Below are positions 12,163 to 35,981 of a stretch of DNA of 64,000 nucleotides, in pieces. Below the pieces are notes generated by a model that saw only the letters and a list, made by a program, of their open reading frames with translations, was not told the origin of the DNA and did not search any database. Source of the DNA: an uncultured Bacteroidales bacterium (lineage in GTDB: Bacteria > Bacteroidota > Bacteroidia > Bacteroidales > GCA-2748055); contig CAVVVN010000001.1 in NCBI GenBank assembly GCA_963751705.1, forward strand, positions 493,329 to 557,328. The letters run 5' to 3'. How positions within the stretch are numbered: position 1 is the stretch's first letter; every line of letters begins with the position of its first letter. A program made the translations under genes and the position numbers.

Positions 12163-12969
12163 ATGGAGACAGGTAATTTCTGGTTTGCATTTGGCCTCAC
12201 CTTGTTTGCCGGCTTATCAACGGGCATCGGAAGTGCACTGGCTTTTTTTACCAAAAGTACCAATACACGTTTTCTCTCCGTAAGTCTTGGTTTCTCAGCG
12301 GGAGTGATGGTATATGTCTCTTTTGTGGAGATTTTACAAAAAGCACGTATATCTCTGATCCCGGCGTATGGAGAAAAAATGGCCGCCTGGTATTCGGTGC
12401 TCGCTTTTTTTGCCGGAATCCTGGTCATCGCCCTGATCGACAAATTGATTCCTTCTCAGGAAAATCCTCATGAGATCAGGAAGGTTGAAGAGATGTCCAC
12501 AAACAATGTAAGAGATCCAAAGTTGGTGCGCATGGGGCTGTTTACAGCCCTGGCCATTGCCATACATAATTTCCCTGAGGGAATAGCTACCTTTATGGCC
12601 GGTCTCACCGATCCTACCCTGGCTATCCCCGTAGCCGTGGCTATCGCCGTTCACAATATTCCGGAAGGAATTGCTGTTTCTATCCCTATCTCCTATGGCA
12701 CAGGGAATAAGAAAAGGGGCTTTTTTCTTTCTTTTCTTTCCGGACTGGCCGAACCGATAGGTGCTCTGATCGCATGGCTGATTCTAATGCCCTTTATGGA
12801 CGGTAATCTCTTTGGGTTTATCTTTGCCGGTGTGGCAGGCATCATGGTGTTTATATCTATCGACGAGCTCTTACCTACGGCCCGGGAATATGGATTGCAT
12901 CATCATTCCATCTATGGCTTTGTGGCGGGAATGGCCATTATGGCACTTAGTCTATTACTGTTTATCTAG
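12163..12969 (+). CDS. zupT: ZIP-family divalent metal transporter ZupT
   Basis: Duplicated HNFPEGIA / HNIPEGIAV motifs and 8-TM-like hydrophobic pattern; starts 11 nt after lgt. Confidence 0.9.
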
Positions 12970-13899
12970 ATGGCGAAGAAAAAATATAAGCGTAAACACT
13001 CTCACCACCATCACGCAGTAAATGAAAAAAACCTGCTGACCGTCACCCTTCTGAACCTGGTAATTACGATTGTGGAGATTGCCGGGGGGGTTCTCTCTGG
13101 CAGCCTGGCCTTGCTCTCTGACGCTCTTCATAATCTAAGCGATACCTTCGCTACCTTTATTGCCTACCTGGCCACCATTGCGGGCAAGCGTGAGGCCAAT
13201 CAAAAAAAGACATTCGGGTACAAACGATTGGAAATTCTGGCCGCTCTGATCAATGCGGTGATCCTGATAGTCATAAGCTTCTTTCTGATTAAAGAGGCCT
13301 GGCACAGGTGGCAAAACCCAGGCACCATTAACTCTATGATCATGCTGGTTGTGGGAATGATCGGCCTTCTTGCCAATCTCTATGCGGTCCTCATCCTGAA
13401 AAAAGAGGCCAGCAAAAGTATCAATGTCAGAGCGGCCTACGTCCACCTGATCGCCGATAGCCTGTCTTCCGTGGTGGTAATCATCGGGGGGGTGCTGATT
13501 CGAATTTTTAAAATCGACTGGATCGACCCGGTCATCACCTTTATGATTTCCATATATATCATACGTTCAGGCTTCCTGATCCTTAATGAGTCAGTCAATA
13601 TACTGATGCAATCGGCCCCGGAACACCTGGACCTGAACAGTATTAAGAAAAAAGTTGAACAAGTGCCCGGGGTACTAAACCTGCATCATTTACATGCCTG
13701 GATGCTGACGGACCGGGAGATTCATCTGGAAGCTCATGTGGAGCTGAATACGGATATGAAGCTTAGTCATGTAAATCCCATCAGGCAACAAATCGAAGCA
13801 CTTCTGAAAGAAGATTTCGGCATCGGCCACATCACCCTGCAAATGGAGTTTAAAACTGAACATGATCCCCGGTTAATTCATGCCAGCCCTGACCGATGA
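12970..13899 (+). CDS. cation diffusion facilitator, CzcD/ZitB-like (HxxxD/HxxxD site, His-rich N-terminus)
   Basis: KHSHHHHA N-terminus, TM2 SDALHNLSD, TM5 VHLIADS and a C-terminal cytoplasmic domain. The ATG directly abuts the zupT TAG. Confidence 0.88.
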   Translation: MAKKKYKRKHSHHHHAVNEKNLLTVTLLNLVITIVEIAGGVLSGSLALLSDALHNLSDTFATFIAYLATIAGKREANQKKTFGYKRLEILAALINAVILIVISFFLIKEAWHRWQNPGTINSMIMLVVGMIGLLANLYAVLILKKEASKSINVRAAYVHLIADSLSSVVVIIGGVLIRIFKIDWIDPVITFMISIYIIRSGFLILNESVNILMQSAPEHLDLNSIKKKVEQVPGVLNLHHLHAWMLTDREIHLEAHVELNTDMKLSHVNPIRQQIEALLKEDFGIGHITLQMEFKTEHDPRLIHASPDR

Positions 13900-14831
13900 A
13901 GAGGGAGCAACATATCATCCGGGCCTCGTGGTGGTCCATTACAGGCAACACTCTGCTGGCTTTTTTGAAACTTTCCGCGGGGCTTATTTCTGGAAGTTTT
14001 GCGGTGATAGCCGATGGCATCGATTCTGTTTCTGATATTGTTTCTTCCCTGGTGGTCCTGATAGCTGCCCGAATCATTGCCAAACCTCCAAATATCAAAT
14101 TTCCCTATGGGTATAAAAAAGCTGACACGGTAGCTACTAAAGTTCTCTCATTTATGATCTTTTTTGCAGGGGCCCAGCTGGCCTACTCCACCGTAAAGCT
14201 TCTGATTCGGGGGGAGAGCATGGAGATTCCGGGAAACCTGGCCATCTGGATCACCGTGATTTCCATTGGCGGTAAATTTATTCTCTCGCTCCTGCTGTTC
14301 AAAACGGGTAAAAAAGTAGAGAGTACGATGCTTATGGCCAATGCCCGGAATATGCGAAATGATATATTTCTCTCCTTTAGTGTTCTCGCCAGCCTGGTCT
14401 TTACCATGATTCTCGAGGAACCCCTGATCGATCGCATCATTGCGCTTCTGATTAGCATTTTCATTATGTATGAAGGATTCCGGATCTTTATGAAATCCAA
14501 TATTGATCTGATGGATGGGATTGACAACACAGAGCTATACAAGCGCCTTTTCGAATCGATTCATCTGGTCAAGGGGGCCCATAATCCCCACCGGGTCAGA
14601 GCCCGAAAAATTGGGCATTACTACATGGTAAACCTGGATGTGGAGGTGGATCCGGAGCTGACCGTTAAAGAGGCTCATGAGATAGCCAAAAACGTGGAGA
14701 AAAGCATTAAATCGAATCTTCGAAATATTTACGACATCATGGTTCATGTGGAGCCCCTGGGCAACCGGGAAGAAGATGAAAAATACGGTATCACAGAAAC
14801 CGAGATTCAAAAAGAAAAAAGAAAAAAATGA
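13896..14831 (+). CDS. cation diffusion facilitator, FieF/YiiP-like with atypical DxxxD/NxxxD site
   Basis: TM2 ADGIDSVSD and TM5 ARNMRND. ATGA overlap with the upstream CDF gene. Confidence 0.82.
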   Translation: MKREQHIIRASWWSITGNTLLAFLKLSAGLISGSFAVIADGIDSVSDIVSSLVVLIAARIIAKPPNIKFPYGYKKADTVATKVLSFMIFFAGAQLAYSTVKLLIRGESMEIPGNLAIWITVISIGGKFILSLLLFKTGKKVESTMLMANARNMRNDIFLSFSVLASLVFTMILEEPLIDRIIALLISIFIMYEGFRIFMKSNIDLMDGIDNTELYKRLFESIHLVKGAHNPHRVRARKIGHYYMVNLDVEVDPELTVKEAHEIAKNVEKSIKSNLRNIYDIMVHVEPLGNREEDEKYGITETEIQKEKRKK

Positions 14832-15562
14832 TTACCAGGGATTGGCCCATGTATCGGGTGATACTTGAGAACCTGCAGTTGCTGCCTCTTTTACCTCGCT
14901 TCAACCTGAAACCTGGTTTCGGTGAGCTGAGCGTGGATGAGGTCTGCGAGGCTCATGGAGTGAATACGGAATTTTTCCTGGAAATTGCTAACGCCTATCT
15001 GGATGAATTGTATGTCCCCGAGGAGGGACTGGCCCTTTTTCCTCTGGGTACCATGGTGACTTACATTACCTCCACCCATACCTATTACAAAGAAATTGCC
15101 CTGCCCATGGTGGAAGAGAAACTAATGCGACTGATGGACCATTCTTCCCTGTCGGAGAAAGAAGTGACTCTGATACGTACTTTTTTCAATGACTACAAGG
15201 AAGATTTTATGGCCCATCTTTCCCAGGAGGAGGAACAAATTTTACCCTATGTGCTTGAACTTGAAAGACAGGCCTCCCTGGATAAGCCAGATCCTTTGTT
15301 CCTGGAAAAACTTCAGGCGTATTCCATCCGTGAATTTGAGAAGGAACATACTCGTTTGGAAACAAGCCTGAGTCATCTTTCTGAACTCATCATTAAATAC
15401 CTGCCTCCCTTTGACGATCTGCAACTGTGTCATCAGGTATTGAATGATCTGGCAAGCCTGATGAAAGACCTGGTCGATCATGCTGACATGGAAGATAAAG
15501 TGCTGATTCCCAGGGTTGCAAATCTTGAAAATCTCCTGCTAAACAGGTCGTCTATTTCATGA
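14828..15562 (+). CDS. hemerythrin-like (RIC/ScdA-type) di-iron domain protein
   Basis: Four-helix H/E pattern: YITSTHTYYKEIALP, FMAHLSQEEEQILP, EKEHTRLE, LVDHADMEDKVLIP. ATGA overlap with the upstream gene. Confidence 0.6.
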   Translation: MITRDWPMYRVILENLQLLPLLPRFNLKPGFGELSVDEVCEAHGVNTEFFLEIANAYLDELYVPEEGLALFPLGTMVTYITSTHTYYKEIALPMVEEKLMRLMDHSSLSEKEVTLIRTFFNDYKEDFMAHLSQEEEQILPYVLELERQASLDKPDPLFLEKLQAYSIREFEKEHTRLETSLSHLSELIIKYLPPFDDLQLCHQVLNDLASLMKDLVDHADMEDKVLIPRVANLENLLLNRSSIS

Positions 15563-16173
15563 GGTTTTCGGGTTTCATACTGGTTCTGGATTCCTATATC
15601 GTCCGAAAAGGGCTGATCTCCGTGCTAAACCGGATTCAGGGAGTCCGGGTGTTGAAAGAATTTAATGCGGCGGATCCTTTTCAGTCTTATCTGGAGGATC
15701 ACCCGGTTGATTTTATTATTATCAGCCAGTCGGCTTTCCGTCAGCGTACAGACCTGTTTATATCGAACCCTGAACTGCTGGAGAAAACTATCCTGCTGGA
15801 AGAACCCCAGGCAGATGATCAGTTGAAAACTAAGCCTGTGCAGGGAATTCCTGCTTCTATCCATCTGATGGAAAATAAAGAGGCCCTGAGCGCTAAAATT
15901 CAAAGCCTGCTGGACCATCGCTATTTTAAAGCTTCCGGGAATGAGCCCCTGGGTCTTTCACCCCGTGAAACTACCATTGTCAGACTGGTTTCCATGGGAC
16001 TCACAAACCGGCAAATTGCAGAAAAATTATTTCTGTCTGCCCATACCGTTATGACCCACCGGAAAAACATCAGCAGCAAGCTGGGAATTAAATCTGTTTC
16101 CGGACTAACCATCTATGCCATTGTAAATAACATTATCACCCTTGATGAGGTAAGCTCCTATCCTGCTAAGTAA
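15559..16173 (+). CDS. LuxR/NarL-type HTH regulator with degenerate (pseudo)receiver domain
   Basis: C-terminal LSPRETTIVRLVSMGLTNRQIAEKLFLSAHTVMTHRKNISSKLG. The N-terminal receiver-like fold lacks the acidic pocket and acceptor Asp (ILVLDS..., DFIIISQS). Confidence 0.8.
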   Translation: MRFSGFILVLDSYIVRKGLISVLNRIQGVRVLKEFNAADPFQSYLEDHPVDFIIISQSAFRQRTDLFISNPELLEKTILLEEPQADDQLKTKPVQGIPASIHLMENKEALSAKIQSLLDHRYFKASGNEPLGLSPRETTIVRLVSMGLTNRQIAEKLFLSAHTVMTHRKNISSKLGIKSVSGLTIYAIVNNIITLDEVSSYPAK

Positions 16174-16206: not shown

Positions 16207-17094
16207 ATGGCTGAAAAGAAAACCAACGTAAATGCACTATACGGAGTCCTCGGATTACTGGTTGTTATCCTGGGTGTTGCCGTATACATGCTGCTGGATA
16301 CCCGGAAAAATCTGAACCTGGTTTCTACAGATCTGGCTGAAAAAACAGAGTTCTTTCGTATAGAGAAAGATTCCCTGGAAGGAGAACTTCGCAACATCTA
16401 CTTCAGGTACGACACACTTGAAACCAATAATCTGGAACTGCAGGTGGAGATGGAACAACAGAAGGAAAAGATCGAAAAGCTTATCTCACTTCAGGCGGAG
16501 GACGCTTACAAGATCCGTATGTACCGCAAAGAGATGGAAACCCTGCGTTCTGTTTTACGGAGTTACATTGTACAGATCGATTCCCTGAATATGCAAAACC
16601 AGGAGTTGCTGGCCGAAAATAAACAGTTGAGAAACACCGAATTGAGGCTGAGTTCAGAAAAGAAACAACTTGAAAAGGATAAAACCCAGTTGGAAGAAAT
16701 TAAAGACCTGGCCACCACCCTGCAGGCTTCTCAGATCGACCTGGTCCTGCTAAACAAACGCGACAAAAATACAGACCGTATCAGAACGGCTGTGAAAGTC
16801 AGGGTTGACTTTGTTCTCAGGGCCAATAAGGTAAGCCCCGCCGGAGAGAAGAGCATCTATCTGCGAATTATCAGGCCAGATCAGGTGGTCCTGGGTTCCC
16901 CGGAACTGGAAATGATTGAAGTAAACCGTGAACAGATTCCGGTCTCTGCTTCCCGGGTAGTCAACTATGAAAACGAGGATTTGCCGGTCTCCATCTTCTG
17001 GAATAACGATGGTGAAATTGTGCCCGGTGAACATAGCGTAGAGCTCTATTCCGAAGGAAAAATTATCGGACAGTCCTCTTTCGTCCTTAAGTAA
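16207..17094 (+). CDS. membrane-anchored coiled-coil protein, function unknown
   Basis: N-terminal TM segment LYGVLGLLVVILGVAVYMLL, about 150 aa of heptad-rich E/K/L/Q sequence, then a C-terminal beta-rich ~110 aa region. Confidence 0.55.
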   Translation: MAEKKTNVNALYGVLGLLVVILGVAVYMLLDTRKNLNLVSTDLAEKTEFFRIEKDSLEGELRNIYFRYDTLETNNLELQVEMEQQKEKIEKLISLQAEDAYKIRMYRKEMETLRSVLRSYIVQIDSLNMQNQELLAENKQLRNTELRLSSEKKQLEKDKTQLEEIKDLATTLQASQIDLVLLNKRDKNTDRIRTAVKVRVDFVLRANKVSPAGEKSIYLRIIRPDQVVLGSPELEMIEVNREQIPVSASRVVNYENEDLPVSIFWNNDGEIVPGEHSVELYSEGKIIGQSSFVLK

Positions 17095-17109: not shown

Positions 17110-18405
17110 ATGAATATTGGAATTATCATCGGGCGGATCGGTGGGGTGGACGGTGTGGCACTGGAATCCGAAAAGTGGATCGAGGTTCTCAGGGCTATGG
17201 GCCACCGGGTCTATACTCTTTCCGGCCAATTTCAGGAGCGCCCCATGGACCCCGCTACAGAAAACCTGGTTCCTGAAATGTCTTTTTTCTCCCCCGAGAG
17301 TTTCTGGAGCCAGAAAAAAGCATTTTTCTACCCGGAAACTACTCCTGAAGAGCTTATCGAGCACCTGAATCTCTATTCTAAGGTGATCTACAAAAAGATC
17401 ATGCACTGGATCCAGGAACGCCAAATCGAATTGCTGATCTCGGAAAACGCTTCTGCTCTCCCCTCTCATCTGGAAATGGGAATGGCCATCAATAAGGCGG
17501 TACATAAAACCGGGATACCCACCATCACCCATGATCATGATTTTGCCTGGGAACGCGGAGACCGGTATCTGTCTCCTCATAAGGAGATCAATGAGTTTGT
17601 TTCTGAGGTTTTTCCGCTCAGGGCACCTAATTCGGTGCATGCCGTAATTAATAGTCATGCGGCTTTGACTTTAAAGGAGCGATTTGGGCGTGAGGCGATA
17701 ATGGTTCCCAATGTGATGGATTTCGACCAGCCATTCGGCCTGCATACAGAGAAAAATGAGGCCCTGGCCGAACATATGGGGTTTCAGAAAACAGATCTTT
17801 TCCTCTTTCAGATTACCCGCATTGTCAGGCGAAAAGGGATCGAGTCTGCCATACGCTTAATTCACGAACTTGACGATACAAAGATAAAACTGATTATTAC
17901 CGGCAATTACGCAGATGATGCCGGAAGCGCCTATTACAATGAGCTGGTCAACCTGATACATGACCTTAAGCTGAGTGAACAGATTCGTTTTGCCTACCAT
18001 CTTTTTCATAACAAAGGGCTCTCTAACGGCAACGGAGAGGTGCGTTTTTCACTGTCGGATGCTTATGCCAAGGCTACGGCATGTACCTATTTCAGTACCT
18101 ATGAGGGCTTCGGTAATGCCTTTGTAGAAGCGGTTCTGGCCAGGAGACCCATTTTCGTTAACAATTACGTGCCGGTATATATGCCGGATATCGGCAGTAA
18201 GGGATTTAAAACTGTCATGATTGAAAATGGAGAGCTTACCGGCAAAGCGTTAAGCGAAATGGCCGAAATCATCTATAATCCAAAACTGGCTGCTGAAATC
18301 GCCGAGTTTAATTTTAAGCTGGGTAAGAAGGAATTTAGTTTTGATACCCTCAGGGAAAAACTGGATCAGTTAATTGGCAAGGCCCTGAAAGCGGCCGGAC
18401 GCTAA
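17110..18405 (+). CDS. GT-B fold retaining glycosyltransferase (GT4-like, EX7E motif)
   Basis: GRIGGVDGVALESEKW N-terminal motif and EGFGNAFVEA (E-x7-E). It is paralogous to the N-terminal module of the 19532-23689 product. Confidence 0.78.
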   Translation: MNIGIIIGRIGGVDGVALESEKWIEVLRAMGHRVYTLSGQFQERPMDPATENLVPEMSFFSPESFWSQKKAFFYPETTPEELIEHLNLYSKVIYKKIMHWIQERQIELLISENASALPSHLEMGMAINKAVHKTGIPTITHDHDFAWERGDRYLSPHKEINEFVSEVFPLRAPNSVHAVINSHAALTLKERFGREAIMVPNVMDFDQPFGLHTEKNEALAEHMGFQKTDLFLFQITRIVRRKGIESAIRLIHELDDTKIKLIITGNYADDAGSAYYNELVNLIHDLKLSEQIRFAYHLFHNKGLSNGNGEVRFSLSDAYAKATACTYFSTYEGFGNAFVEAVLARRPIFVNNYVPVYMPDIGSKGFKTVMIENGELTGKALSEMAEIIYNPKLAAEIAEFNFKLGKKEFSFDTLREKLDQLIGKALKAAGR

Positions 18406-19529
18406 TCCATAAACAGGGCCCTCAACACTTGATCTGTAATCAGCCACTGTGCCGGATCAATGGCAAGCTTTCCGTCTATGCGGACCAAACTACCAGATCC
18501 GAGAAAGGTCCGGGCCTGATTCTCAAAATGTACCCGATACTCTTTACCGAAAGCTTTTTCTATATGGCCGGGATCCGCACCCCATTTGGTTCTCAGCGAG
18601 GTGATCAGATAGTCGTGGTATTTTTCCTGCCTGGAAAGAAGCTCCGTTTCTTCTATATTTTTTCCGGAAGACACACGATCCATATAGTCTTTCAGGGAAG
18701 AGATATTCCAGCTTCGTCGCTCTCCATCGTAGGAGTGAGCTGAAGGTCCGAGCCCCAGGTAGGCTTGGCCCGTCCAGTATAGCATATTGTGTTTCGAGAA
18801 ACTTCCATTGAGCCCAAAATTGGATAGTTCATAGTGATCAAATCCGCGCGTAAGCAGCCTTTCCCGCATGATTCTGAATTGTTCAACGCTCTCTTCTTCA
18901 GCCACCGGTACCAATCTCCCCTTCTTTCTCCAGTGATCAAACACGGTTCCGGGTTCAAAGCTCAGGTGATAGGCAGAAAGATGGTTCACGGGTAAAGAAA
19001 GCGCTTTTTCAATATTCAGTTCCCACTCCTCCACGGACTGTCCGGGAATTCCATAGATCAGATCCATGGTCAGATTATCAAAGCCGCAATCTGCTGCCCG
19101 CATTATTCCCTCTTCGGCCTGTCCCGCCTGATGAGACCGGCGCATGAGTTCCAGATCTCTTTGGTGAAAAGATTGTACCCCCACACTCAAGCGGTTAAAG
19201 CCCATTTGGCGTAGTATCTTTAAAGCAGCCTCCTCCAGGTCCTCCGGATTACACTCTATGGTCCATTCGGAATCCTCCCGGAAGTTGTGGTACCTGCCAA
19301 TTGCATCCAATATTTTTTCCAGGTGGAGGGGAGATAGAAGGGACGGGGTTCCTCCTCCCAGATAGAGTGTCTCCAGGTTCTTGCCTGGATTTTTTTCTCC
19401 CTTCTGCCTGATCTCCTCCACCAGTGCATCCACAAAGCTATCCATGTACTGCAAGCTGACTGCAAAGAAAAAGTCGCAATATCTGCAGGCCTTTCTGCAA
19501 AACGGGATATGCACATATATGCCAGACAT
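18402..19529 (-). CDS. hemW: radical SAM heme chaperone HemW (HemN-like, oxygen-independent coproporphyrinogen oxidase family)
   Basis: IPFCRKACRYCDF (CxxxCxxC), GGGTPS, and a C-terminal HemN_C-like region. Confidence 0.88.
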   Translation of the reverse strand: MSGIYVHIPFCRKACRYCDFFFAVSLQYMDSFVDALVEEIRQKGEKNPGKNLETLYLGGGTPSLLSPLHLEKILDAIGRYHNFREDSEWTIECNPEDLEEAALKILRQMGFNRLSVGVQSFHQRDLELMRRSHQAGQAEEGIMRAADCGFDNLTMDLIYGIPGQSVEEWELNIEKALSLPVNHLSAYHLSFEPGTVFDHWRKKGRLVPVAEEESVEQFRIMRERLLTRGFDHYELSNFGLNGSFSKHNMLYWTGQAYLGLGPSAHSYDGERRSWNISSLKDYMDRVSSGKNIEETELLSRQEKYHDYLITSLRTKWGADPGHIEKAFGKEYRVHFENQARTFLGSGSLVRIDGKLAIDPAQWLITDQVLRALFMD

Positions 19530-19531
19530 CT

Positions 19532-22500
19532 TTACTCCATGGTAAATCCGATAATAGCGCTGGAAACAGCTCTGGGCTCCGGGGGCAGGGCGTAAACATC
19601 CTGCTCATAATTGCGGTTATAGGGGGAAATATTCAGCGTGGAAGAGCCCACTACCAGGGTGCTGCTGCCACCAGGATCAAAGCCCATGGCTTTCTCCATG
19701 CCATGTTTCAGGAGAATCTCAGCCATATCGTGGTGCGTGGCTCCCACCGATTCCCTGATTCTTCCGTTTACGGTCAGAACGGCCAGTTCATTTCTCTGGT
19801 TGATCCCCACCGCAATTTTTGGTCCGCGCATATTTGTATAATCCAGCCTGGCAGCCTGTGTGCGAATGGAGTTGGGACTATTCCACCCCTCCAGCTCCAT
19901 ATCAATGATGCATTTGCCCTTGTCCAGTAATAAAGGTCCCGCTTCCACCGCATGCCTCACCCCTTCCAGGCCCGGAATCTCCAGTTCCAGTATTTCTCCA
20001 GGTTTCAGGCCCACGGGAAGCTCAGATGGATGCAGGACCAGGGTCAGTCCCACGGGAATAAGAGGAACCCGCTCCCCCTTCCGGGTAAGAACAATCTCCT
20101 TGACCACATTCCCGGAGAGGCGTATAAGAGCTCTTCCGTTTCCCTCGATCATCTCCTCCGGATAGAGGAGGTCAAAGTAGGCCCGGGCAGTATGTTTTCC
20201 TGTGGGATTATACTCCCTGCTTTGGAAGACAATATCCCTCCCTTTCCAGGAAACCTTTAGCCCCTCCTTACAATTAACCCGCCGGATATCCATGGAGCCA
20301 TCTTCAAAAATCAATAGAGCTGGTTTATTAAAAAGGGGGGGCGCTGTCTTGTTTCCCTCTGTAATAAGCAAACCCAGGGGAGAGCCGATATAGGTTTCGG
20401 GTAATCCAAGTTTTCCAACCAGTTCAGGATTCAAAATATAACCGCCGTTCCAGGCGATCCTGGCAGTATGGCCGGTCTTTTTCTTAAAGGCCTGAACTAA
20501 CTGTCCGACCGTCCGGGGTTTGCCCCCTGAAGAAACCGCCTGAAAGTCCCAACGCTGCTCCTTGAAATTCAGGATGGCCAGGGCTCCATTATAGGGCAGG
20601 CCATCGGAGAAGAGTCCGCTAATGTATCCATAGCTTACTGCCTCTTCCTGAGACTCTGCTTGCTCCATTTTCGTAAGTACATGCCTCAGGGGGCTACCCT
20701 TGTGAATCGCATCTTCTTTTATGGCCGCTAAAACCTTCTCCTCTCCCAGATTTTTTACCAGTTTTTTATATAACTCACTATTCATTCCCCGATCAAAATC
20801 TTTCGCGGTTTGAACGGGAGCCGGATAGGATAGGGTGGCCCTAACCCCGGCCGGCACAAATTGAATATACCCGCTTGATAGGGGGATACCCATCATATGG
20901 GCCTTGATTTCATTGGCCACCTTTCCAATATGAAAACGATCCATGTCAACCAGGTCGGTCATCATGCTGGCATTACTGCGATTGGACAGCAAATATCCCT
21001 TTTGATCCCTCACCTTTCGCAGGACCTTCAGCGCCCTGTTGCCCAGCTGCGGGAAATGTATTCCCACGCATAGCTGTTTGGTTCGAATAATCTGGATCAC
21101 TTTAAATTCATAAAGCAGTCTTAACTCTTCCGATTCTCCGGTAATGATATAATCGGTGATTTCATCCTTATTCAGCTGTTTTCCCAGATTCTTTTCCTGT
21201 GCAAAAATATAGACCACTTGTAAAGTTGACGCTTTCTCCTCCAGCATCTCCCTGGTAATACTCTCCTCCATGGGAAGGTTCATTCTGGATCGGATCGACT
21301 GAAGAGCAAAGAACTCCAATTCATACATGATGTAGGCCCCCGGAAAATAGGCGATGGGTCGGTTTTGCCTGAGCCACTCTATTAAGCGCTTTCTGTTATC
21401 AATGGCCAGGTAGGAGCTGCCGGTCAACTGCATCAGGGCCAGGTTCCAGTCGGTGAAAAACGGAGGACTCAGGTCTACTTTATTGAGGGGGGCCGGCTGC
21501 ACGATCCTTATATATAGCAGGTTGATTAAGCCTGTTAGCTCCTGGAAAGTATAGTCCTGGTAGGGATAGTGGTAGTTGTTTCGGTGCCGGTAAGACAAGG
21601 AATGATCATGCTGTATGGAGCGGCTTCCCTCTCTGTATTCAAAAAGTGTCTCCACCGCATTGAAAAACTGGTTGAAAAACTTTTCTGGAATATATTCTGA
21701 ATCGGGATCATTGCTTATGATGGTACGCGAAAAATGCAAAGCCATTCCCCGGATCCGTTGTTGCTCCACTCTGAAAAAGCTGGGATCAATCAAAGACTTC
21801 AACATAAACATAAATCTTAGTTGCGCGTAGCCTGGAAGATATTGACGGGTTGTGGTGTCCATCAAAGCCTCCAGGTGCTCACTCCTGAAACCGACCATCT
21901 CTCGGTAATCATCCAGGCTTTCGCAAACATATCTCAGGGTTTTTTCATTTCCGCGAAGCTGCTCATAAAGACGGTGCAATATCTGGTGCAGATTATTATT
22001 AAGCGCTTCCAGGCTATAACGCTTCAGCACCACCCGCTGATTGTGCCTGATTTCATCCATATACCGGTGTGGGAAAAAGATTCGGTCGATGATCCTTTGT
22101 ACCATCCCCACAGATATACGTTTCCCTTTAAATTCCAGCACCATCAAACGATCCCGCTCGTCCAGGTGTTCTCCGATCACATCCGAATATACTTTCTCTG
22201 GTTCATATCTTCTGCAAAAAATTGGCGTACCGCAGGCTGTAGCTTCAATAATGGGCAATCCGCGCCCTTCTGTTTTACTGGGCAATAATACCAGAGAAGA
22301 AACATTATACAACTCCGAAATCCCCATGGGTGTGTCAAATCTCTCCCTAAATGAATCCCGGTCTATCTCGCCGAATAGCAGGGCAAGGTATACCCGCTTT
22401 CTTAATTCAGGTTCCACTTCCTCCAGAAGATCTTTGAATCTTTTGACCAGTTTTTTATAATAAGCATAATGCCCGGCTGCAATGGGTCCCGTGATAAGCA

Positions 22501-23689
22501 GGGTCATCTTTAAATGAGAAGTTTTACGGAAGCGCAGCTTCATTTCTTCCTCCTGGAACATTTTGAGCAGAAGATTAAAGGAGGCCTCGATCTTTTTTCT
22601 GGATATGATTCTCGTGGGCTGCAGCAGAAGGATATTTTCGTCGATAAAACGCTCCACCCCTGCTGTGCGCTCGCCTATCAGAATAGGTCTCTGGTTGCTC
22701 TCTGCCACCAGTTCACCCGACAGGACATCCTCCACCGAATAGCTGACCAGTTTGTCAGCATATCTCGCCAGCATCTGCTCCAGCTGAAGAAAGGTGTTGA
22801 TGTTTTTCCGCTTATCTGCTTTGGTATAAAGTGTGGTATCCACTGCAGTGCCTATTTCCATGACATTGGCCGGATTATGGCCATTAAGACGGATCAGGTG
22901 CTCTTTTTGTCCCCGGTTTATATTTACATTGATCCAGGCCCGGGATTGCCAGGGATAAAGGATTTCCAAAAGGGAAAACACTTCTCCCAGGTGGCAATTG
23001 GTAAAGAAGAAATCCCTTGGGCCCGCTTTACCTCCCGCCCTCTCCCTGTCCAGGGGGCACATACCATCCTCCCAGTAGAAATCATGATTATTGTTGATTG
23101 CGGGTATCTTCAGGAATTCGGATAAGAGCACCAGGGCAAGCGCATAGGCCACATTCCCCGGATTAGAACAAACATTGATTATATAGAAAAGGTTTATTCC
23201 CTCTTCCTCTATGTAATTGCCCAGTTCCTCCACAATGCCCAGCGTCTGTTTCCAGAGCTTCCGGATAAGTTCGTTATAGACAGGGCCCCCTCTTTCGAGC
23301 CTGCTGAAGTAGAAGTCCCGGTAGAGTTCCCATTGGTTAAACCCGGCCAGATCGGGAATTACCTTTTGTCTGATGTCCTTTTGGATAAATGGGGCTGTTT
23401 TCGAATGGATCTCCCCGGCAATGTAGTGAATGGGGATTCCGGGGATATTACGTCTCATTAATGCGGCATATTTATCCACTTCAATGGTCACCCCATCTAC
23501 CATATAATGAAATGTGAGGAAGGCCACTCCCCCTGTTCTAAGCCTTTCCTTGTATTCCTCGTATGTGCCTTCCTGCTGAATGGATGGATAGTCCCGTTCT
23601 TCCCTGAATCTGTCCAGAAAAAGCCCCAGGTCGAACCAGGTTTCGATTTTTTCTCTATTTAGTACAGCCAATAATTCAGCTACTTTCAT
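19532..23689 (-). CDS. 1385-aa multidomain protein: GT4-like glycosyltransferase + unassigned central module + phosphodiester glycosidase (NAGPA/DUF2233-like) domain
   Basis: N-terminal motifs VDGVTIEVDKY, NNNHDFYWEDG, QPTRIISRKKIE and EGRGLPIIEA (EX7E). C-terminal motifs AWNGGYIL, GPKIAVGINQRNELAVLTVNGR and GFDPGGSSTLVV. No signal peptide or TM segment seen. Confidence 0.7.
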   Translation of the reverse strand: MKVAELLAVLNREKIETWFDLGLFLDRFREERDYPSIQQEGTYEEYKERLRTGGVAFLTFHYMVDGVTIEVDKYAALMRRNIPGIPIHYIAGEIHSKTAPFIQKDIRQKVIPDLAGFNQWELYRDFYFSRLERGGPVYNELIRKLWKQTLGIVEELGNYIEEEGINLFYIINVCSNPGNVAYALALVLLSEFLKIPAINNNHDFYWEDGMCPLDRERAGGKAGPRDFFFTNCHLGEVFSLLEILYPWQSRAWINVNINRGQKEHLIRLNGHNPANVMEIGTAVDTTLYTKADKRKNINTFLQLEQMLARYADKLVSYSVEDVLSGELVAESNQRPILIGERTAGVERFIDENILLLQPTRIISRKKIEASFNLLLKMFQEEEMKLRFRKTSHLKMTLLITGPIAAGHYAYYKKLVKRFKDLLEEVEPELRKRVYLALLFGEIDRDSFRERFDTPMGISELYNVSSLVLLPSKTEGRGLPIIEATACGTPIFCRRYEPEKVYSDVIGEHLDERDRLMVLEFKGKRISVGMVQRIIDRIFFPHRYMDEIRHNQRVVLKRYSLEALNNNLHQILHRLYEQLRGNEKTLRYVCESLDDYREMVGFRSEHLEALMDTTTRQYLPGYAQLRFMFMLKSLIDPSFFRVEQQRIRGMALHFSRTIISNDPDSEYIPEKFFNQFFNAVETLFEYREGSRSIQHDHSLSYRHRNNYHYPYQDYTFQELTGLINLLYIRIVQPAPLNKVDLSPPFFTDWNLALMQLTGSSYLAIDNRKRLIEWLRQNRPIAYFPGAYIMYELEFFALQSIRSRMNLPMEESITREMLEEKASTLQVVYIFAQEKNLGKQLNKDEITDYIITGESEELRLLYEFKVIQIIRTKQLCVGIHFPQLGNRALKVLRKVRDQKGYLLSNRSNASMMTDLVDMDRFHIGKVANEIKAHMMGIPLSSGYIQFVPAGVRATLSYPAPVQTAKDFDRGMNSELYKKLVKNLGEEKVLAAIKEDAIHKGSPLRHVLTKMEQAESQEEAVSYGYISGLFSDGLPYNGALAILNFKEQRWDFQAVSSGGKPRTVGQLVQAFKKKTGHTARIAWNGGYILNPELVGKLGLPETYIGSPLGLLITEGNKTAPPLFNKPALLIFEDGSMDIRRVNCKEGLKVSWKGRDIVFQSREYNPTGKHTARAYFDLLYPEEMIEGNGRALIRLSGNVVKEIVLTRKGERVPLIPVGLTLVLHPSELPVGLKPGEILELEIPGLEGVRHAVEAGPLLLDKGKCIIDMELEGWNSPNSIRTQAARLDYTNMRGPKIAVGINQRNELAVLTVNGRIRESVGATHHDMAEILLKHGMEKAMGFDPGGSSTLVVGSSTLNISPYNRNYEQDVYALPPEPRAVSSAIIGFTME

Positions 23690-23705
23690 TACAAAATAAT
23701 TATCA

Positions 23706-23713
23706 TATTTTTG
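23706..23713 (+). promoter_or_regulatory. -7 box TATTTTTG upstream of the VanZ-like gene
   Basis: Matches TAnnTTTG, 24 nt upstream of ATG 23738. Confidence 0.35.
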
Positions 23714-23737
23714 TAAGCCTGTCTAAGCCCTGCCGAT

Positions 23738-24130
23738 ATGCTAAGGTACGTGTTCCAGTATAAATTTTCCATCCTTCTGGCCATTCTGATTGCTTTGTTG
23801 AGCCTGATACCCGGCAGCAGTATGCCTGGCAGCTCCCTGTTTTCCATTCCCCACTTTGATAAAATAGCTCATTTTTCCATGTATGCCCCTTTCGGCTTTA
23901 TCGCCTTGATGGAGAATCGATGCAAGACACAATGCTTTAGATATCACCTGTTTATTGTTGCAAGTGTCTTTTTGCTCAGCGCTTTAATTGAAATCCTGCA
24001 GGCAACGGTCACGACGGCCCGGGAGGCGGAATGGACCGATCTGCTGGCCAACTTTGGCGGCTTAATTGCGGGTTATCTGGCATACAGGCTTTTAGGCGGA
24101 TACAGGTTGTTTCGCTTCCTTAAATCCTGA
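23738..24130 (+). CDS. VanZ-family membrane protein
   Basis: Four TM-like segments and the FDKIAHFSMYAPFG motif. Confidence 0.7.
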   Translation: MLRYVFQYKFSILLAILIALLSLIPGSSMPGSSLFSIPHFDKIAHFSMYAPFGFIALMENRCKTQCFRYHLFIVASVFLLSALIEILQATVTTAREAEWTDLLANFGGLIAGYLAYRLLGGYRLFRFLKS

Positions 24131-34508: not shown

Positions 34509-35981
34509 TTGAAGAATCCCATTAAACAACTATTTGGGCAGACGGCTGTATATGGACTGGGGATCGTATTGCCCCGCCTGCTTAACTACTTGTTACTAAC
34601 CCCATTTTATACACGAGTATTTGATAGGGCCACTTACGGAATAGTCACCGAGCTCTACGCTTACGTGGTCTTTCTTCTGGTGATCTTAACTTATGGCATG
34701 GAGACGGGATATTTCCGCTATGCCAGTAATTCAGCACAAAAGGCCAAGGTCTACAGTACCGTCATCAGCTCGCTATTTGTCAGCTCCCTTCTTTTTATTC
34801 TGCTTGTTCTTTTCTGGTCGGGGTCCATCAGCGCTGTTATGGGGTATGAATCGCATCCGGAATATATAAAATGGCTGGCAGTAATCGTTGGAATTGATGC
34901 TTTTACAAGCATTCCTTTCGCAAGGATACGGCTTCTAAATAAGCCACTTAAATATGCATTGATCCGAATAGTGGAAGTATCTATCAATATTGGACTGAAC
35001 CTCTTTTTTCTTCGGTATTGTCCCCGGCATGCCGAGTCGGAGCTGGTCTCTCTCTTGTATAATGAGAACATTGGTGTGGGATATGTTCTGATCTCCAATC
35101 TGATTGCTTCCTCCATTAAACTTGTATTACTGGTGCCAGATATCCTGGTGGCCTTTCAGGCCAGGTTTGACTGGAAGCTGTATAAAGAAATTCTCAAATA
35201 TTCATATCCCCTGCTTATCGCCGGATTAGCAGGAACAATTAATGAAGCCCTGGACCGTATTCTCTTAAAGCACTTAATACCCTTGGACCAAAATCCCATG
35301 GAACAGCTGGGAATATATGGGGCAAACTACAAGCTTGCGGTATTGATGACCCTTTTTGTACAGATGTTTAAATATGCTGCCGAGCCTTTCTTTTTCTCAA
35401 AATCGGGCGAAAAGGATGCAAAGAAGCTTTACGCAGACGTTATGATGTTTTTTGTAGTCTGCGGATTATTTATTTTCCTGCTGGTCAATCTGTATCTGGA
35501 TTACTTTATTCTATTTATTGGCTCCGATTTCAGGGAGGGAGTACAGATTGTGCCGGTAGTGCTTTTGGCCAATCTGGTCATGGGGATTTTCTTTAACCTG
35601 TCTATTTGGTATAAATTGACCAATAAAACACGATTTGGAGCCGTTCTAGTATTGCTTGGAGCCGTGATAACAGTGGTCATAAATACGCTGTTCATTCCCA
35701 GGTATGGGTTTGTGGCCTCGGCATGGGCCCATCTGTTTTGCTACAGCACCATGGTAATCCTTTCTTATATTTGGTCAAGAAAGCATTATGCCATCCCCTA
35801 CCGGGCAGGAAGGATCATGATATATATCGCCATAGCCCTGTCTATATATCTTATCAATACACTATTTTTGCAGGATATTGGGGGACCGGGTGACTTGTGG
35901 GCACTGTTGTTGTTGTCGGTTTTCACAGTGGCCGTCATCTGGGGAGAAAGGAGCACGTTTAATCAATATAAAAGCACATAG
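34509..35981 (+). CDS. MOP-superfamily polysaccharide/oligosaccharide flippase (Wzx-like)
   Basis: About 12-14 TM segments, and N-terminal [26 protein letters not shown] typical of this family. TTG start. Confidence 0.72.

What the first reader, a model, noticed from the sequence alone, without database searches (positions are those of the whole stretch)
19532..23689. 1385-aa cytoplasmic fusion of a GT4-like glycosyltransferase, an unassigned ~450-aa module and a phosphodiester-glycosidase-like domain
Seen in sequence: one uninterrupted 4.16-kb ORF with no signal peptide or TM segment. The first ~560 aa carry a retaining GT-B signature, with EGRGLPIIEA as the E-x7-E motif. The last ~340 aa carry motifs I recognise from the phosphodiester glycosidase (NAGPA 'uncovering enzyme', DUF2233) family: AWNGGYIL, GPKIAVGINQRNELAVLTVNGR and GFDPGGSSTLVV. 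I cannot assign residues ~560-1000 to any family. Established knowledge: bacterial NAGPA-like domains are normally stand-alone exported proteins, and GT4 enzymes are normally 350-450 aa. Inference: a cytoplasmic protein that could both form a glycosidic or sugar-phosphate linkage and cleave a sugar-1-phosphodiester suggests a coupled two-step pathway. Products could include a small glycoside, a compatible solute or a carrier-linked sugar, but I cannot match the arrangement to a described pathway. The gene ends 2 nt before hemW and is probably co-transcribed with it. This is the best candidate in the window for undescribed biology.
Basis: partly seen in the sequence, partly recalled or inferred. 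Interest (0 to 1): 0.72.

Follow-up and report, generated by a model that had tools for sequence, protein, structure and literature searches.

The report
Three-enzyme sugar-processing fusion protein, uncharacterised
A real, widely conserved 1385-residue cytoplasmic protein joins a sugar-adding enzyme, a previously unrecognised phosphatase-like module and a sugar-phosphate-cleaving domain; it always travels with a second sugar-adding enzyme and probably makes an unknown soluble sugar compound.

Summary
The ORF is real. It lies on the minus strand (19532-23689), encodes 1385 aa, and contains every quoted motif. It is not an assembly artefact. The same ~1385-aa architecture occurs in 393 species genomes, mostly sediment Bacteroidales. 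It also occurs sporadically in Planctomycetota, Myxococcota, Anaerolineae and DPANN archaea.

- **Residues 1-570:** a GT-B/GT4 glycosyltransferase. The closest structures are sucrose-phosphate synthase, MshA, GlgM and BshA.
a confident model whose only significant PDB neighbours are DUF89/ARMT1 metal-dependent phosphatases. No sequence HMM detects this.
- **Residues 1035-1385:** a true NAGPA-family domain with a DPGGS variant of the catalytic DGGGS loop.

The hemW adjacency holds only within Bacteroidales. The partner conserved across phyla is the neighbouring 431-aa GT4 (17110-18405), a distant relative of mannosylglucosylglycerate synthase. It sits directly upstream of the gene in four of seven distant loci with readable upstream sequence.

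Best reading (about 40%): a cytoplasmic GT-then-phosphatase route to a small glycoside, extended by the partner GT. The role of the NAGPA-like domain is unresolved. No substrate is established. I found no published characterisation.

The parts
19532..23689 (-). Whole gene: 1385-aa three-module protein, here called BIG
   Evidence: The ORF list and translation give one open frame. There are 758 homologues at E<=1e-5, and the best 120 nearly all share the same length and Pfam pair.
21980..23689 (-). Module 1, aa 1-570: GT-B / GT4-like retaining glycosyltransferase. It has a ~55-aa N-terminal helical extension and an enlarged inter-domain insert.
   Evidence: The AlphaFold2 model has pLDDT 92.3 and pTM 0.86. 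Foldseek top hits are Leishmania SPS-like 8vrf (4e-15), MshA 3c4q, GlgM 6tvp, BshA 3mbo and SPS 2r60. PF00534 scores 28.8-30.4 bits. It is paralogous to the partner GT over both halves.
22241..22270 (-). E-x7-E motif EGRGLPIIEA (E474...E482)
   Evidence: Coordinates were verified by translation. E474, R476, L478, P479 and E482 are invariant even in the 29-sequence cross-phylum alignment.
20588..21979 (-). Module 2, aa 571-1034: DUF89/ARMT1-like fold with a helical N-part and a Rossmann-like alpha/beta part. It is a putative metal-dependent phosphatase and matches no sequence family.
   Evidence: The AlphaFold2 model has pLDDT 89.5 and pTM 0.90. The top 13 Foldseek PDB hits, and 16 of the top 17, are DUF89 entries; the best has E 1.1e-5 and probability 1.00. 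Pfam, PDB-sequence and hhalign searches give no match. The module is found in only 112 clusters among 1.84 billion representative proteins, nearly always at aa ~575-1045 of a ~1390-aa protein.
21395..21400 (-). D764-N765, directly after the first beta-strand (LAID) of the alpha/beta part. This is a candidate nucleophile / metal-ligand dyad.
   Evidence: D764 is invariant in 20 cross-phylum sequences and the next residue is N, D or H. The strand position comes from the model. In DUF89 the Asp-Asn dyad follows the middle strand (PMC9062747). The equivalence is inferred, not superposed.
20954..20956 (-). D912 (MMTD), an invariant acidic residue of module 2. R950 lies 38 residues downstream.
   Evidence: D912 and R950 are invariant in A6. 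The spacing equals the Asp363...Lys401 spacing in S. pombe Duf8901. This is inference only.
19535..20587 (-). Module 3, aa 1035-1385: NAGPA / phosphodiester-glycosidase family domain
   Evidence: PF09992 scores 56.5-60.5 bits against a cut-off of 25. PDB profile hits are Slr0280 5h3k (4.7e-9), 6u11 (3e-5), NAGPA 6pku (2.5e-4) and DUF2233 3ohg (2e-3).
19664..19678 (-). DPGGS loop (D1338-S1342), the counterpart of the NAGPA catalytic DGGGS motif
   Evidence: The HMMER alignment to 6pku places it on DGGGS. Coordinates were verified. D1338, P1339, G1340, G1341 and S1342 are invariant among close homologues and at least 90% conserved in the 57-sequence alignments. The roles of D286 and the glycines come from PMC13474241.
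17110..18405 (+). Partner gene: 431-aa GT4, a distant relative of mannosylglucosylglycerate synthase
   Evidence: NF041101 scores 211.6 bits over its full length against a cut-off of 640. It lies within 8 kb in 44 of 53 Bacteroidales loci. Orthologues at 47-55% identity lie directly upstream of BIG on the same strand in L081, L084, L085 and L086.
18402..19529 (-). hemW, 2 nt downstream on the same strand. It is probably co-transcribed but is not part of the conserved module.
   Evidence: TIGR00539 scores 268 bits. It is adjacent in 53 of 65 Bacteroidales loci and absent next to BIG in all distant loci.

Best explanation
BIG is a soluble cytoplasmic three-enzyme fusion. Together with the neighbouring MggS-like GT4, it probably builds a small soluble glycoside, such as a compatible solute or another cytoplasmic sugar conjugate, through a phosphorylated intermediate.

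Proposed order of steps:
1. The N-terminal GT4 domain transfers a sugar from an NDP-sugar to a phosphorylated or acidic small acceptor. Its closest structural relatives do this: SPS uses Fru-6-P, MshA uses Ins-3-P, GlgM uses Glc-1-P and BshA uses malate.
2. The DUF89-like middle module removes the phosphate.
3. The stand-alone MggS-like GT4 adds a second sugar to the dephosphorylated glycoside. This is the reaction type of true MggS (GDP-Man + glucosylglycerate).
4. The C-terminal NAGPA-like domain cleaves an anomeric C1-O-P bond of a sugar-1-phosphate ester. It could do this to turn over or trim an intermediate, or to release a sugar from a glycosyl-phosphate.

Shown here: the three folds or families, conservation of the catalytic motifs of modules 1 and 3, the cytoplasmic location, and the cross-phylum GT partnership. 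Inferred: all substrates, the order of steps, catalytic activity of module 2, and the role of module 3.
For: - **Architecture.** It is conserved at full length in 393 species genomes and across phyla. All three modules are about equally conserved within Bacteroidales, at 63-68% mean identity and 26-29% invariant columns each.
- **Module 1.** It has a GT-B fold. Its best structural neighbours are small-molecule GT4 synthases that use phospho- or acid acceptors. The EX7E motif and the QPTR..RK motif are invariant.
- **Module 2.** The model is confident, and DUF89 phosphatases fill the top 13 PDB hits and 16 of the top 17. An invariant Asp followed by N/D/H sits right after the first strand. There are invariant R/K/H-rich motifs (LKSLIDPS.FR.E and DHS..YRHR), as expected for a phosphate-binding site.
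- **Module 3.** It scores above the Pfam threshold, and the Asp, two Gly and Ser of the catalytic loop are retained.
- **Partner GT.** An orthologue lies directly upstream on the same strand in 4 of the 7 distant loci that have readable upstream sequence. One further locus has a different GT4 there. The partner is nearby in 44 of 53 Bacteroidales loci.
- **Precedent.** GT-plus-phosphatase two-step synthesis followed by an MggS-type second glycosylation is an established pathway logic in Petrotoga and Rhodopirellula (PMC3736172).
- **Genomic setting.** The surroundings are core housekeeping genes, not an envelope-polysaccharide locus, a mobile element or a defence island.
Against: - No substrate or product is known.
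- The DUF89 assignment rests on fold similarity only. TM-scores are 0.27-0.51, and there is no HMM, PDB-sequence or hhalign support.
- I could not superpose coordinates to confirm the metal-ligand residues.
- The partner GT and BIG score far below the MggS equivalog cut-off: 211.6 and 39.9 bits against 640. MGG itself is therefore not implied.
- The scheme gives the NAGPA-like domain no necessary role.
- Foldseek also ranks glycogen synthases and a polysaccharide mannosyltransferase highly, so a polymer product is not excluded.
- Two DPANN loci and one bacterial locus lack the MggS-like partner next to the gene.
Confidence: 0.4

Rival explanations
1. BIG handles an oligo- or polysaccharide through glycosyl-1-phosphate intermediates, by analogy with the GlgM/GlgE route. 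A GT4 would extend a sugar-1-phosphate, as GlgM makes maltose-1-P. The NAGPA-like domain, which breaks C1-O-P bonds with retention, would then transfer or release the glycosyl unit. The DUF89-like module would clear phosphorylated by-products. The product would be a cytoplasmic storage or protective glycan.
For: GlgM is among the top four structural neighbours of module 1. Glycogen synthases and the methylmannose-polysaccharide mannosyltransferase are also strong hits. NAGPA cleaves the anomeric C-O bond of GlcNAc-1-P(-R) by an SNi-like retaining mechanism, like retaining GTs, and it turned GlcNAc-1-P into GlcNAc + Pi (PMC13474241). This reading gives all three modules and the second GT a role.
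Against: No transglycosylase activity is known for any NAGPA-family protein. No glycogen or glucan genes (glgB, glgC, glgE, treS) are in the window or in the conserved neighbourhood. Differences in Foldseek rank among GT4 enzymes are small.
Confidence: 0.2
2. BIG runs a 'cover/uncover' phosphodiester cycle. The GT domain would glycosylate the phosphate of a phosphomonoester, giving a sugar-1-phosphodiester. The NAGPA-like domain would later uncover it and the DUF89-like module would remove the exposed phosphate. This would be a cytoplasmic counterpart of the mannose-6-phosphate uncovering chemistry, acting on a metabolite or on a polyprenyl-phosphate- or protein-linked sugar at the inner face of the membrane.
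For: The product of an NAGPA reaction is a phosphomonoester, which is exactly what a DUF89-type phosphatase takes. The middle module plus NAGPA domain seem to form an evolutionary unit. A distant exported relative, P0222, carries part of the middle module fused to a canonical DGGGS NAGPA domain and lacks the GT.
Against: No GT4 enzyme is known to glycosylate a phosphate oxygen. Making and then cleaving the same bond within one polypeptide would be futile unless the steps are separated by another reaction. The protein has no membrane anchor.
Confidence: 0.12
3. One or both C-terminal modules are non-catalytic, serving as a regulatory, ligand-sensing or oligomerisation scaffold. BIG would then be essentially a large regulated GT4.
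For: Module 2 matches no DUF89 sequence model. The NAGPA loop departs from the DGGGS motif, which is described as strictly invariant (G287 becomes P), and G287A impairs the human enzyme. The position aligned to the N-acetyl-binding Glu226 is variable here.
Against: Many charged or polar residues are invariant in both modules across phyla: K631, D635, R640, E642, D695, H696, R701, R703, D764, D912, R950, and R1310, S1314, D1338, G1340, R1373. Conservation equals that of the GT domain. Slr0280, a solved NAGPA-family protein, also deviates from the motif (DGGSS).
Confidence: 0.15
4. The long ORF is an assembly or frameshift artefact that joins separate genes.
For: None was found.
Against: The same full-length architecture appears in hundreds of independent assemblies. 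These include isolate genomes (Ancylomarina longa, Marinifilum fragile), a complete MAG chromosome and several phyla.
Confidence: 0.01

Closest known systems
Sucrose-phosphate synthase with fused SPP-like domain, and other GT-plus-phosphatase solute pathways (GpgS/GpgP, MpgS/MpgP, OtsA/OtsB, MshA + MshA2)
   Same: A GT-B/GT4 enzyme is physically or genetically coupled to a phosphatase, so that a glycosyl-phospho-intermediate is made and then dephosphorylated in the cytoplasm. SPS and MshA are the top structural neighbours of module 1.
   Different: The phosphatase-like module here has a DUF89-like fold, not a HAD fold. There is a third, NAGPA-like domain. Sequence similarity to SPS or MshA is negligible, with E values of 0.04-1.
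Mannosylglucosylglycerate synthase MggS (NF041101; Petrotoga, Thermotoga)
   Same: The partner GT aligns with MggS end to end. The GT domain of BIG is a paralogue of the partner and shares the HDFxWE and TRI..RK motifs. True MggS adds a second sugar to a non-phosphorylated glycoside.
   Different: Scores are far below the equivalog cut-off: 211.6 and 39.9 bits against 640. No gpgS, mggA or mggB genes are in the neighbourhood. The R. baltica MggS homologue itself showed no activity.
NAGPA 'uncovering enzyme' and bacterial DUF2233 proteins (PF09992; PDB 6pku, 3ohg, 5h3k Slr0280)
   Same: Module 3 is a Pfam family member. The catalytic-loop Asp, two Gly and Ser are retained, and an invariant Arg lies ~35 residues downstream, where R316 would be.
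   Different: It is cytoplasmic and fused, whereas known members are secreted or luminal. The loop is DPGGS, not DGGGS. The position aligned to the GlcNAc N-acetyl-binding Glu226 is not conserved, so the sugar is probably not recognised as in NAGPA.
DUF89 / ARMT1 'damage-control' metal-dependent phosphatases (PDB 2g8l, 1xfi, 2ffj, 6umq, 5f13, 7u1v), including the PanK4 kinase-DUF89 fusion
   Same: The overall two-part fold is shared: a helical part plus a Rossmann-like part. An invariant Asp followed by N/D/H follows the first strand. DUF89 also occurs as a domain fused to another metabolic enzyme.
   Different: There is no detectable sequence homology by Pfam, PDB profile or hhalign. TM-scores are modest. 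The module is ~460 aa with extra elements. The metal triad is not verified.

Membership tests
GT4 / GT-B retaining glycosyltransferases (Pfam PF00534 Glycos_transf_1) | Two-Rossmann-domain GT-B fold | tested here: met
   The AlphaFold2 model of aa 1-575 has pLDDT 92.3. There are 388 PDB matches at E<=1e-3, headed by GT4 enzymes with TMt up to 0.75.
GT4 / GT-B retaining glycosyltransferases (Pfam PF00534 Glycos_transf_1) | HMM score above the Pfam gathering threshold | tested here: met
   The score is 28.8 bits on the full protein and 30.4 bits on aa 1-570, against a cut-off of 26.4. This is marginal and covers only aa 457-496.
GT4 / GT-B retaining glycosyltransferases (Pfam PF00534 Glycos_transf_1) | E-x7-E motif and the basic residues of the nucleotide-sugar site | tested here: met
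   E474 and E482 are invariant across phyla. Q357, P358 and T359 are invariant in the cross-phylum alignment, and R360, R364 and K365 are invariant in the 57-sequence alignment.
GT4 / GT-B retaining glycosyltransferases (Pfam PF00534 Glycos_transf_1) | Glycosyl transfer from an NDP-sugar with retention | not testable with these tools
   This needs an enzyme assay.
Mannosylglucosylglycerate synthase, NF041101 (equivalog) | Whole-protein score at or above the curated cut-off of 640 bits | tested here: not met
   BIG scores 39.9 bits (aa 350-570 only). The partner GT scores 211.6 bits over its full length. Both are distant relatives, not MggS.
DUF89 / ARMT1 phosphatases (Pfam PF01937) | Sequence-model match | tested here: not met
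   No PF01937 hit appears at E<=10 for the window protein or for any of 20 family members. No DUF89 chain appears in the PDB profile search. hhalign against human ARMT1 gives probability 0.1%.
DUF89 / ARMT1 phosphatases (Pfam PF01937) | Characteristic fold: helical domain plus Rossmann-like domain | tested here: met
   The top 13 Foldseek hits, and 16 of the top 17, are DUF89 entries. Eight have E<=1e-3. Probability is 0.99-1.00 for the top 9. Alignments of 411-470 columns to 1xfi and 6umq span both parts.
DUF89 / ARMT1 phosphatases (Pfam PF01937) | Asp-Asn dyad after the middle strand plus a second Asp forming the metal site, with Asp/Lys in later loops | tested here: inconclusive
   Invariant D764 followed by N/D/H lies after the first strand. 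Invariant D912 and R950 are 38 residues apart, matching the Asp363/Lys401 spacing.
NAGPA / phosphodiester glycosidase (Pfam PF09992) | HMM score above the gathering threshold | tested here: met
   The score is 56.5 bits on the full protein and 60.5 bits on aa 1041-1385, against a cut-off of 25. PDB profile hits go to five NAGPA-family structures.
NAGPA / phosphodiester glycosidase (Pfam PF09992) | Invariant DGGGS catalytic loop (D286, G288, G289 and S290 essential) | tested here: inconclusive
   The loop is D1338-P-G-G-S1342. The Asp, the last two Gly and the Ser are kept, but the first Gly is Pro throughout the family.
NAGPA / phosphodiester glycosidase (Pfam PF09992) | Phosphate-binding Arg (R316) and sugar-binding Glu226/Thr227 | tested here: inconclusive
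   Invariant R1373 lies 35 residues after the Asp, but outside the HMMER alignment. T1277 aligns with T227 and is invariant. The residue aligned with E226 is R1276 and is variable.
NAGPA / phosphodiester glycosidase (Pfam PF09992) | Hydrolysis of a sugar-1-phosphodiester | not testable with these tools
   This needs an enzyme assay.

The most novel reading that the evidence does not exclude
BIG and its partner GT form a previously undescribed prokaryotic pathway that passes through a sugar-1-phosphodiester ('covered phosphate') intermediate. The diester would be made, uncovered by the first known cytoplasmic NAGPA-type enzyme, and then dephosphorylated by a new, sequence-orphan branch of the DUF89 phosphatases. 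The result would be a new class of cytoplasmic glycoside or glycan in anoxic-sediment Bacteroidales, and in DPANN archaea through gene transfer.
Probability: 0.12. Interest if true: 0.8.

Novelty: new variant of a known kind. Interest (0 to 1): 0.6.

Why it matters
Each module has a known fold, but this combination has not been described. It contains a cytoplasmic NAGPA-family domain fused to a glycosyltransferase and to a phosphatase-like module that no sequence model recognises. It is conserved in about 400 species genomes, mostly anoxic-sediment Bacteroidales, and has moved between bacterial phyla and DPANN archaea.

If the pathway reading is right, three things follow:
- These abundant, mostly uncultured organisms make an unknown soluble sugar compound, possibly an osmolyte or stress protectant.
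- NAGPA chemistry has a cytoplasmic role in prokaryotes.
- The DUF89 superfamily has a deep, unannotated branch that deserves its own family model.

Two cultured hosts, Marinifilum fragile and Ancylomarina longa, make the hypothesis directly testable.

Tried and rejected
- **Sequence routes to the middle module.** Pfam at E<=10 on the window protein and on 20 family members, a PDB profile search, and hhalign against human ARMT1 all gave nothing meaningful. The single hhalign alignment (probability 0.1%) places the DUF89 'DN' on a non-conserved NR/GE position, so I discarded it.
- **Related-loci search.** The search for related loci with the diverse alignment A2 failed because it had no conserved 7-10-residue stretch. 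I repeated it with A1.
- **hemW as a functional partner.** Rejected. The adjacency is confined to Bacteroidales (against 29-31, 36-38, 40, 60, 61).
- **Defence or conflict system.** Pfam gave a weak 'GT4-conflict' hit at 17.3 bits. BIG, the partner GT and the adjacent ORF have no PADLOC match, and the context is core genome. Rejected.
- **Envelope-polysaccharide locus.** Rejected. The conserved neighbourhood holds no flippase, polymerase or sugar-nucleotide genes. One Polysacc_synt gene at 34509-35981 is 11 kb away, and I did not test its conservation near homologues.
- **Promoter and terminator scan of 16-25.2 kb.** Counts were at or below shuffle expectation, so it was uninformative.
- **Literature.** I searched for phosphodiester glycosidase + glycosyltransferase, Slr0280, DUF2233, NAGPA + Bacteroidetes, MggS, and glucosylglycerate + Bacteroidetes. 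No paper describes this architecture. The DUF2233 structure paper (PMC3675612) was not available.

Full report
**The observation**

The ORF list shows one open frame at 19532..23689 on the minus strand, starting with ATG and encoding 1385 aa.

There is no N-terminal signal-like segment. The most hydrophobic 19-residue window scores 1.86 at aa 180. It contains a charged residue and aligns with a helix of the partner glycosyltransferase's Rossmann domain. A cytoplasmic location is therefore the reasonable reading.

The stop codon is separated by 2 nt from the start of a gene that passes the HemW equivalog model, at 268 bits against a cut-off of 205.

**It is not an artefact**

A search of 5.8 billion protein clusters returned 758 homologues. 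Nearly all of the best 120 are 1383-1405 aa long, cover 99-100% of the query and carry the same Pfam pair.

A scan of one genome per species (185,579 species) found relatives in 393 genomes. The 80 best are Bacteroidales, Marinilabiliales or Marinifilaceae, and most are MAGs. They include the isolates Ancylomarina longa and Marinifilum fragile and one complete MAG chromosome. One locus is 95% identical to the window.

A profile built from the most distant members found the same ~1380-1460-aa architecture in proteins labelled Myxococcota, Planctomycetota, Anaerolineaceae, Chlorobi, Woesearchaeota and DPANN.

**The two ends**

Pfam gives NAGPA (PF09992) 56.5 bits, against a cut-off of 25. It gives Glycos_transf_1 28.8 bits, against a cut-off of 26.4.

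A profile of the family hits five solved NAGPA-family structures. Slr0280 (5h3k) is best at 4.7e-9. The HMMER alignment to guinea-pig NAGPA places the family's D-P-G-G-S (aa 1338-1342) on the catalytic D-G-G-G-S loop. According to PMC13474241, D286, G288, G289 and S290 of that loop and R316 are essential, and E226/T227 bind the N-acetyl group.

In this family:
- The Asp, the last two Gly and the Ser are conserved, but the first Gly is always Pro.
- An invariant Arg (R1373) lies 35 residues downstream.
- T1277 aligns with T227.
- The residue aligned with E226 is variable.

The domain therefore looks catalytically competent, but it is unlikely to recognise GlcNAc in the NAGPA manner.

An AlphaFold2 model of aa 1-575 (pLDDT 92.3, pTM 0.86) has a GT-B fold. 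Its best PDB neighbours are the Leishmania sucrose-phosphate-synthase-like protein, MshA, GlgM (maltose-1-phosphate synthase), BshA, HepE and Halothermothrix SPS, at E 4e-15 to 3e-12. These are GT4 enzymes that glycosylate small phosphorylated or acidic acceptors. Glycogen synthases follow closely, so the ranking is suggestive rather than decisive.

**The "unassigned" middle**

Residues 571-1040 have no Pfam hit even at E<=10 and no PDB sequence hit.

An exhaustive HMMER search of 1.84 billion representative proteins found the module in only 112 clusters. Nearly all full-length hits are 1380-1460 aa with the module at about 575-1045. The module is therefore essentially confined to this architecture.

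An AlphaFold2 model built from 57 homologues is confident, with pLDDT 89.5 and pTM 0.90. Foldseek against the PDB returns DUF89/ARMT1 metal-dependent phosphatases as its top 13 hits, and as 16 of the top 17. These include PH1575, At2g17340, AF1104, human ARMT1, the two S. pombe paralogues and yeast YMR027W. The best has E 1.1e-5, and probability is 0.99-1.00 for the top nine. The longer alignments (411-470 columns) span both the helical and the Rossmann-like parts. TM-scores are modest, at 0.27-0.51.

In DUF89 enzymes an Asp-Asn dyad directly after the middle strand, plus a second Asp, bind the metal, and the first Asp is the phosphoryl acceptor (PMC9062747). In this module an invariant Asp (D764), followed by N, D or H, lies directly after the first strand of the alpha/beta part. 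D912 and R950 are invariant and 38 residues apart, which matches the Asp363/Lys401 spacing. Two R/K/H-rich invariant motifs (LKSLIDPS.FR.E and DHS..YRHR) lie in the helical part.

I could not superpose coordinates, and hhalign against human ARMT1 found nothing. The fold assignment is therefore supported, but the active-site equivalence is inferred.

All three modules are about equally conserved within Bacteroidales: 63-68% mean identity, with 26-29% of columns invariant.

**Neighbours**

Within Bacteroidales, hemW follows BIG on the same strand in 53 of 65 loci with enough flank. A 431-aa GT4 lies convergent just beyond hemW in 44 of 53 loci. That GT4, at window 17110-18405, matches the MggS model end to end but scores far below the cut-off, at 211.6 bits against 640. 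The GT domain of BIG is its paralogue and shares the HDFxWE motif.

The informative test is the set of eight distant loci:
- In a Planctomycetota contig, a Myxococcota contig and two further metagenome contigs, an orthologue of this GT4 (47-55% identity) sits immediately upstream of BIG on the same strand. The gaps are 18-317 nt.
- None of the other window neighbours (hemW, Rrf2, RpiB, NadA, VanZ) is found next to BIG there.
- A DPANN locus has a different GT4 upstream.
- One bacterial locus and one Woesearchaeota locus have no GT4 upstream.
- One Anaerolineae contig has no upstream sequence.

The conserved functional unit is therefore the MggS-like GT4 plus BIG. hemW is a lineage-specific operon neighbour.

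The rest of the window is core genome: cysS, ispG, ispD, lgt, pheS, mnmG, uvrC, polA, ruvB and nadA. There is no PADLOC match.

**Mechanism**

The best-supported reading is a cytoplasmic glycoside synthase system built on a familiar logic. A GT4 glycosylates a phosphorylated acceptor, a fused phosphatase removes the phosphate, and a second MggS-type GT4 adds another sugar. This is the sequence GpgS, then GpgP, then MggS described for mannosylglucosylglycerate.

Three differences set this system apart:
- The phosphatase has a DUF89-like fold rather than a HAD fold.
- Neither GT is an MggS equivalog.
- A third, NAGPA-like domain is attached. Its known chemistry is cleavage of an anomeric C1-O-P bond.

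That third activity is not required by the simple scheme. It might turn over the product or an intermediate. Alternatively, the pathway might run through glycosyl-1-phosphate or glycosyl-phosphodiester intermediates, as in the two rival readings. I put about 40% on the main scheme. Substrates and product remain unknown.

**Comparison and novelty**

Public annotation calls these proteins "phosphodiester glycosidase family protein" or "glycosyltransferase". Searches of the held literature found no characterisation.

Each module belongs to a known fold class, so this is not categorically new. The combination, the cytoplasmic NAGPA-type domain and the sequence-orphan DUF89-like module make it a new variant of known kinds. 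Two cultured hosts are available for direct testing.

Noticed in passing
window 16207-17094 (+): This 295-aa ORF has no family beyond weak coiled-coil-type hits. It lies just upstream of the partner GT and is found in the same position in 36 of 80 Bacteroidales loci, but in none of the distant loci.
   Followed up: partly
window 18402-18405: The convergent hemW and partner-GT genes end within the same 4 bases, so their stop codons overlap and there is no room for a terminator. The tight BIG-hemW-GT spacing recurs in many Bacteroidales loci, with the GT starting ~1130-1200 nt after BIG.
   Followed up: partly
proteins P0222 and P0225 (1559-1562 aa): These are distant relatives of BIG. P0222 has an N-terminal signal-peptide-like segment, an unrelated N-terminal ~900 aa, only the C-terminal half of the middle module (D912 replaced by N) and a NAGPA domain with the canonical DGGGS loop. 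This suggests that the middle-module-plus-NAGPA pair predates the GT fusion and also exists in exported form.
   Followed up: partly
L083 (DPANN archaeon), L089 (Woesearchaeota): DPANN archaea carry full-length homologues. The L083 protein is more similar to the Bacteroidales protein (about 47% identity) than the Myxococcota homologue is (37%). This points to inter-domain gene transfer.
   Followed up: partly
L054 and L060: Two different contigs of the same MAG (Bacteroidales 20BLK6-1.bin.63) each carry a full BIG-hemW locus with the partner GT ~4 kb away. This is either a true duplication or mixed strains in the bin.
   Followed up: no
window 12163-16173 (+): This is a run of metal-homeostasis-type genes: a ZIP transporter, two tandem cation-diffusion-facilitator paralogues, a hemerythrin-domain protein and a LuxR/GerE-type regulator.
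   Followed up: no
window 23690-24130: A VanZ-family gene diverges from BIG across a 48-bp intergenic region. It is conserved there only in the closest relatives (25 of 80 loci). The Myxococcota locus L084 also has a VanZ-like gene, about 6 kb downstream of BIG.
   Followed up: no
protein P0317: A protein 100% identical to the partner GT is on record from an 879,623-bp NCBI contig, so the source genome of the window is probably public. The closest named genome found is the uncultured Bacteroidales MAG MFD03551.bin.2.12, at 95-97% protein identity.
   Followed up: no
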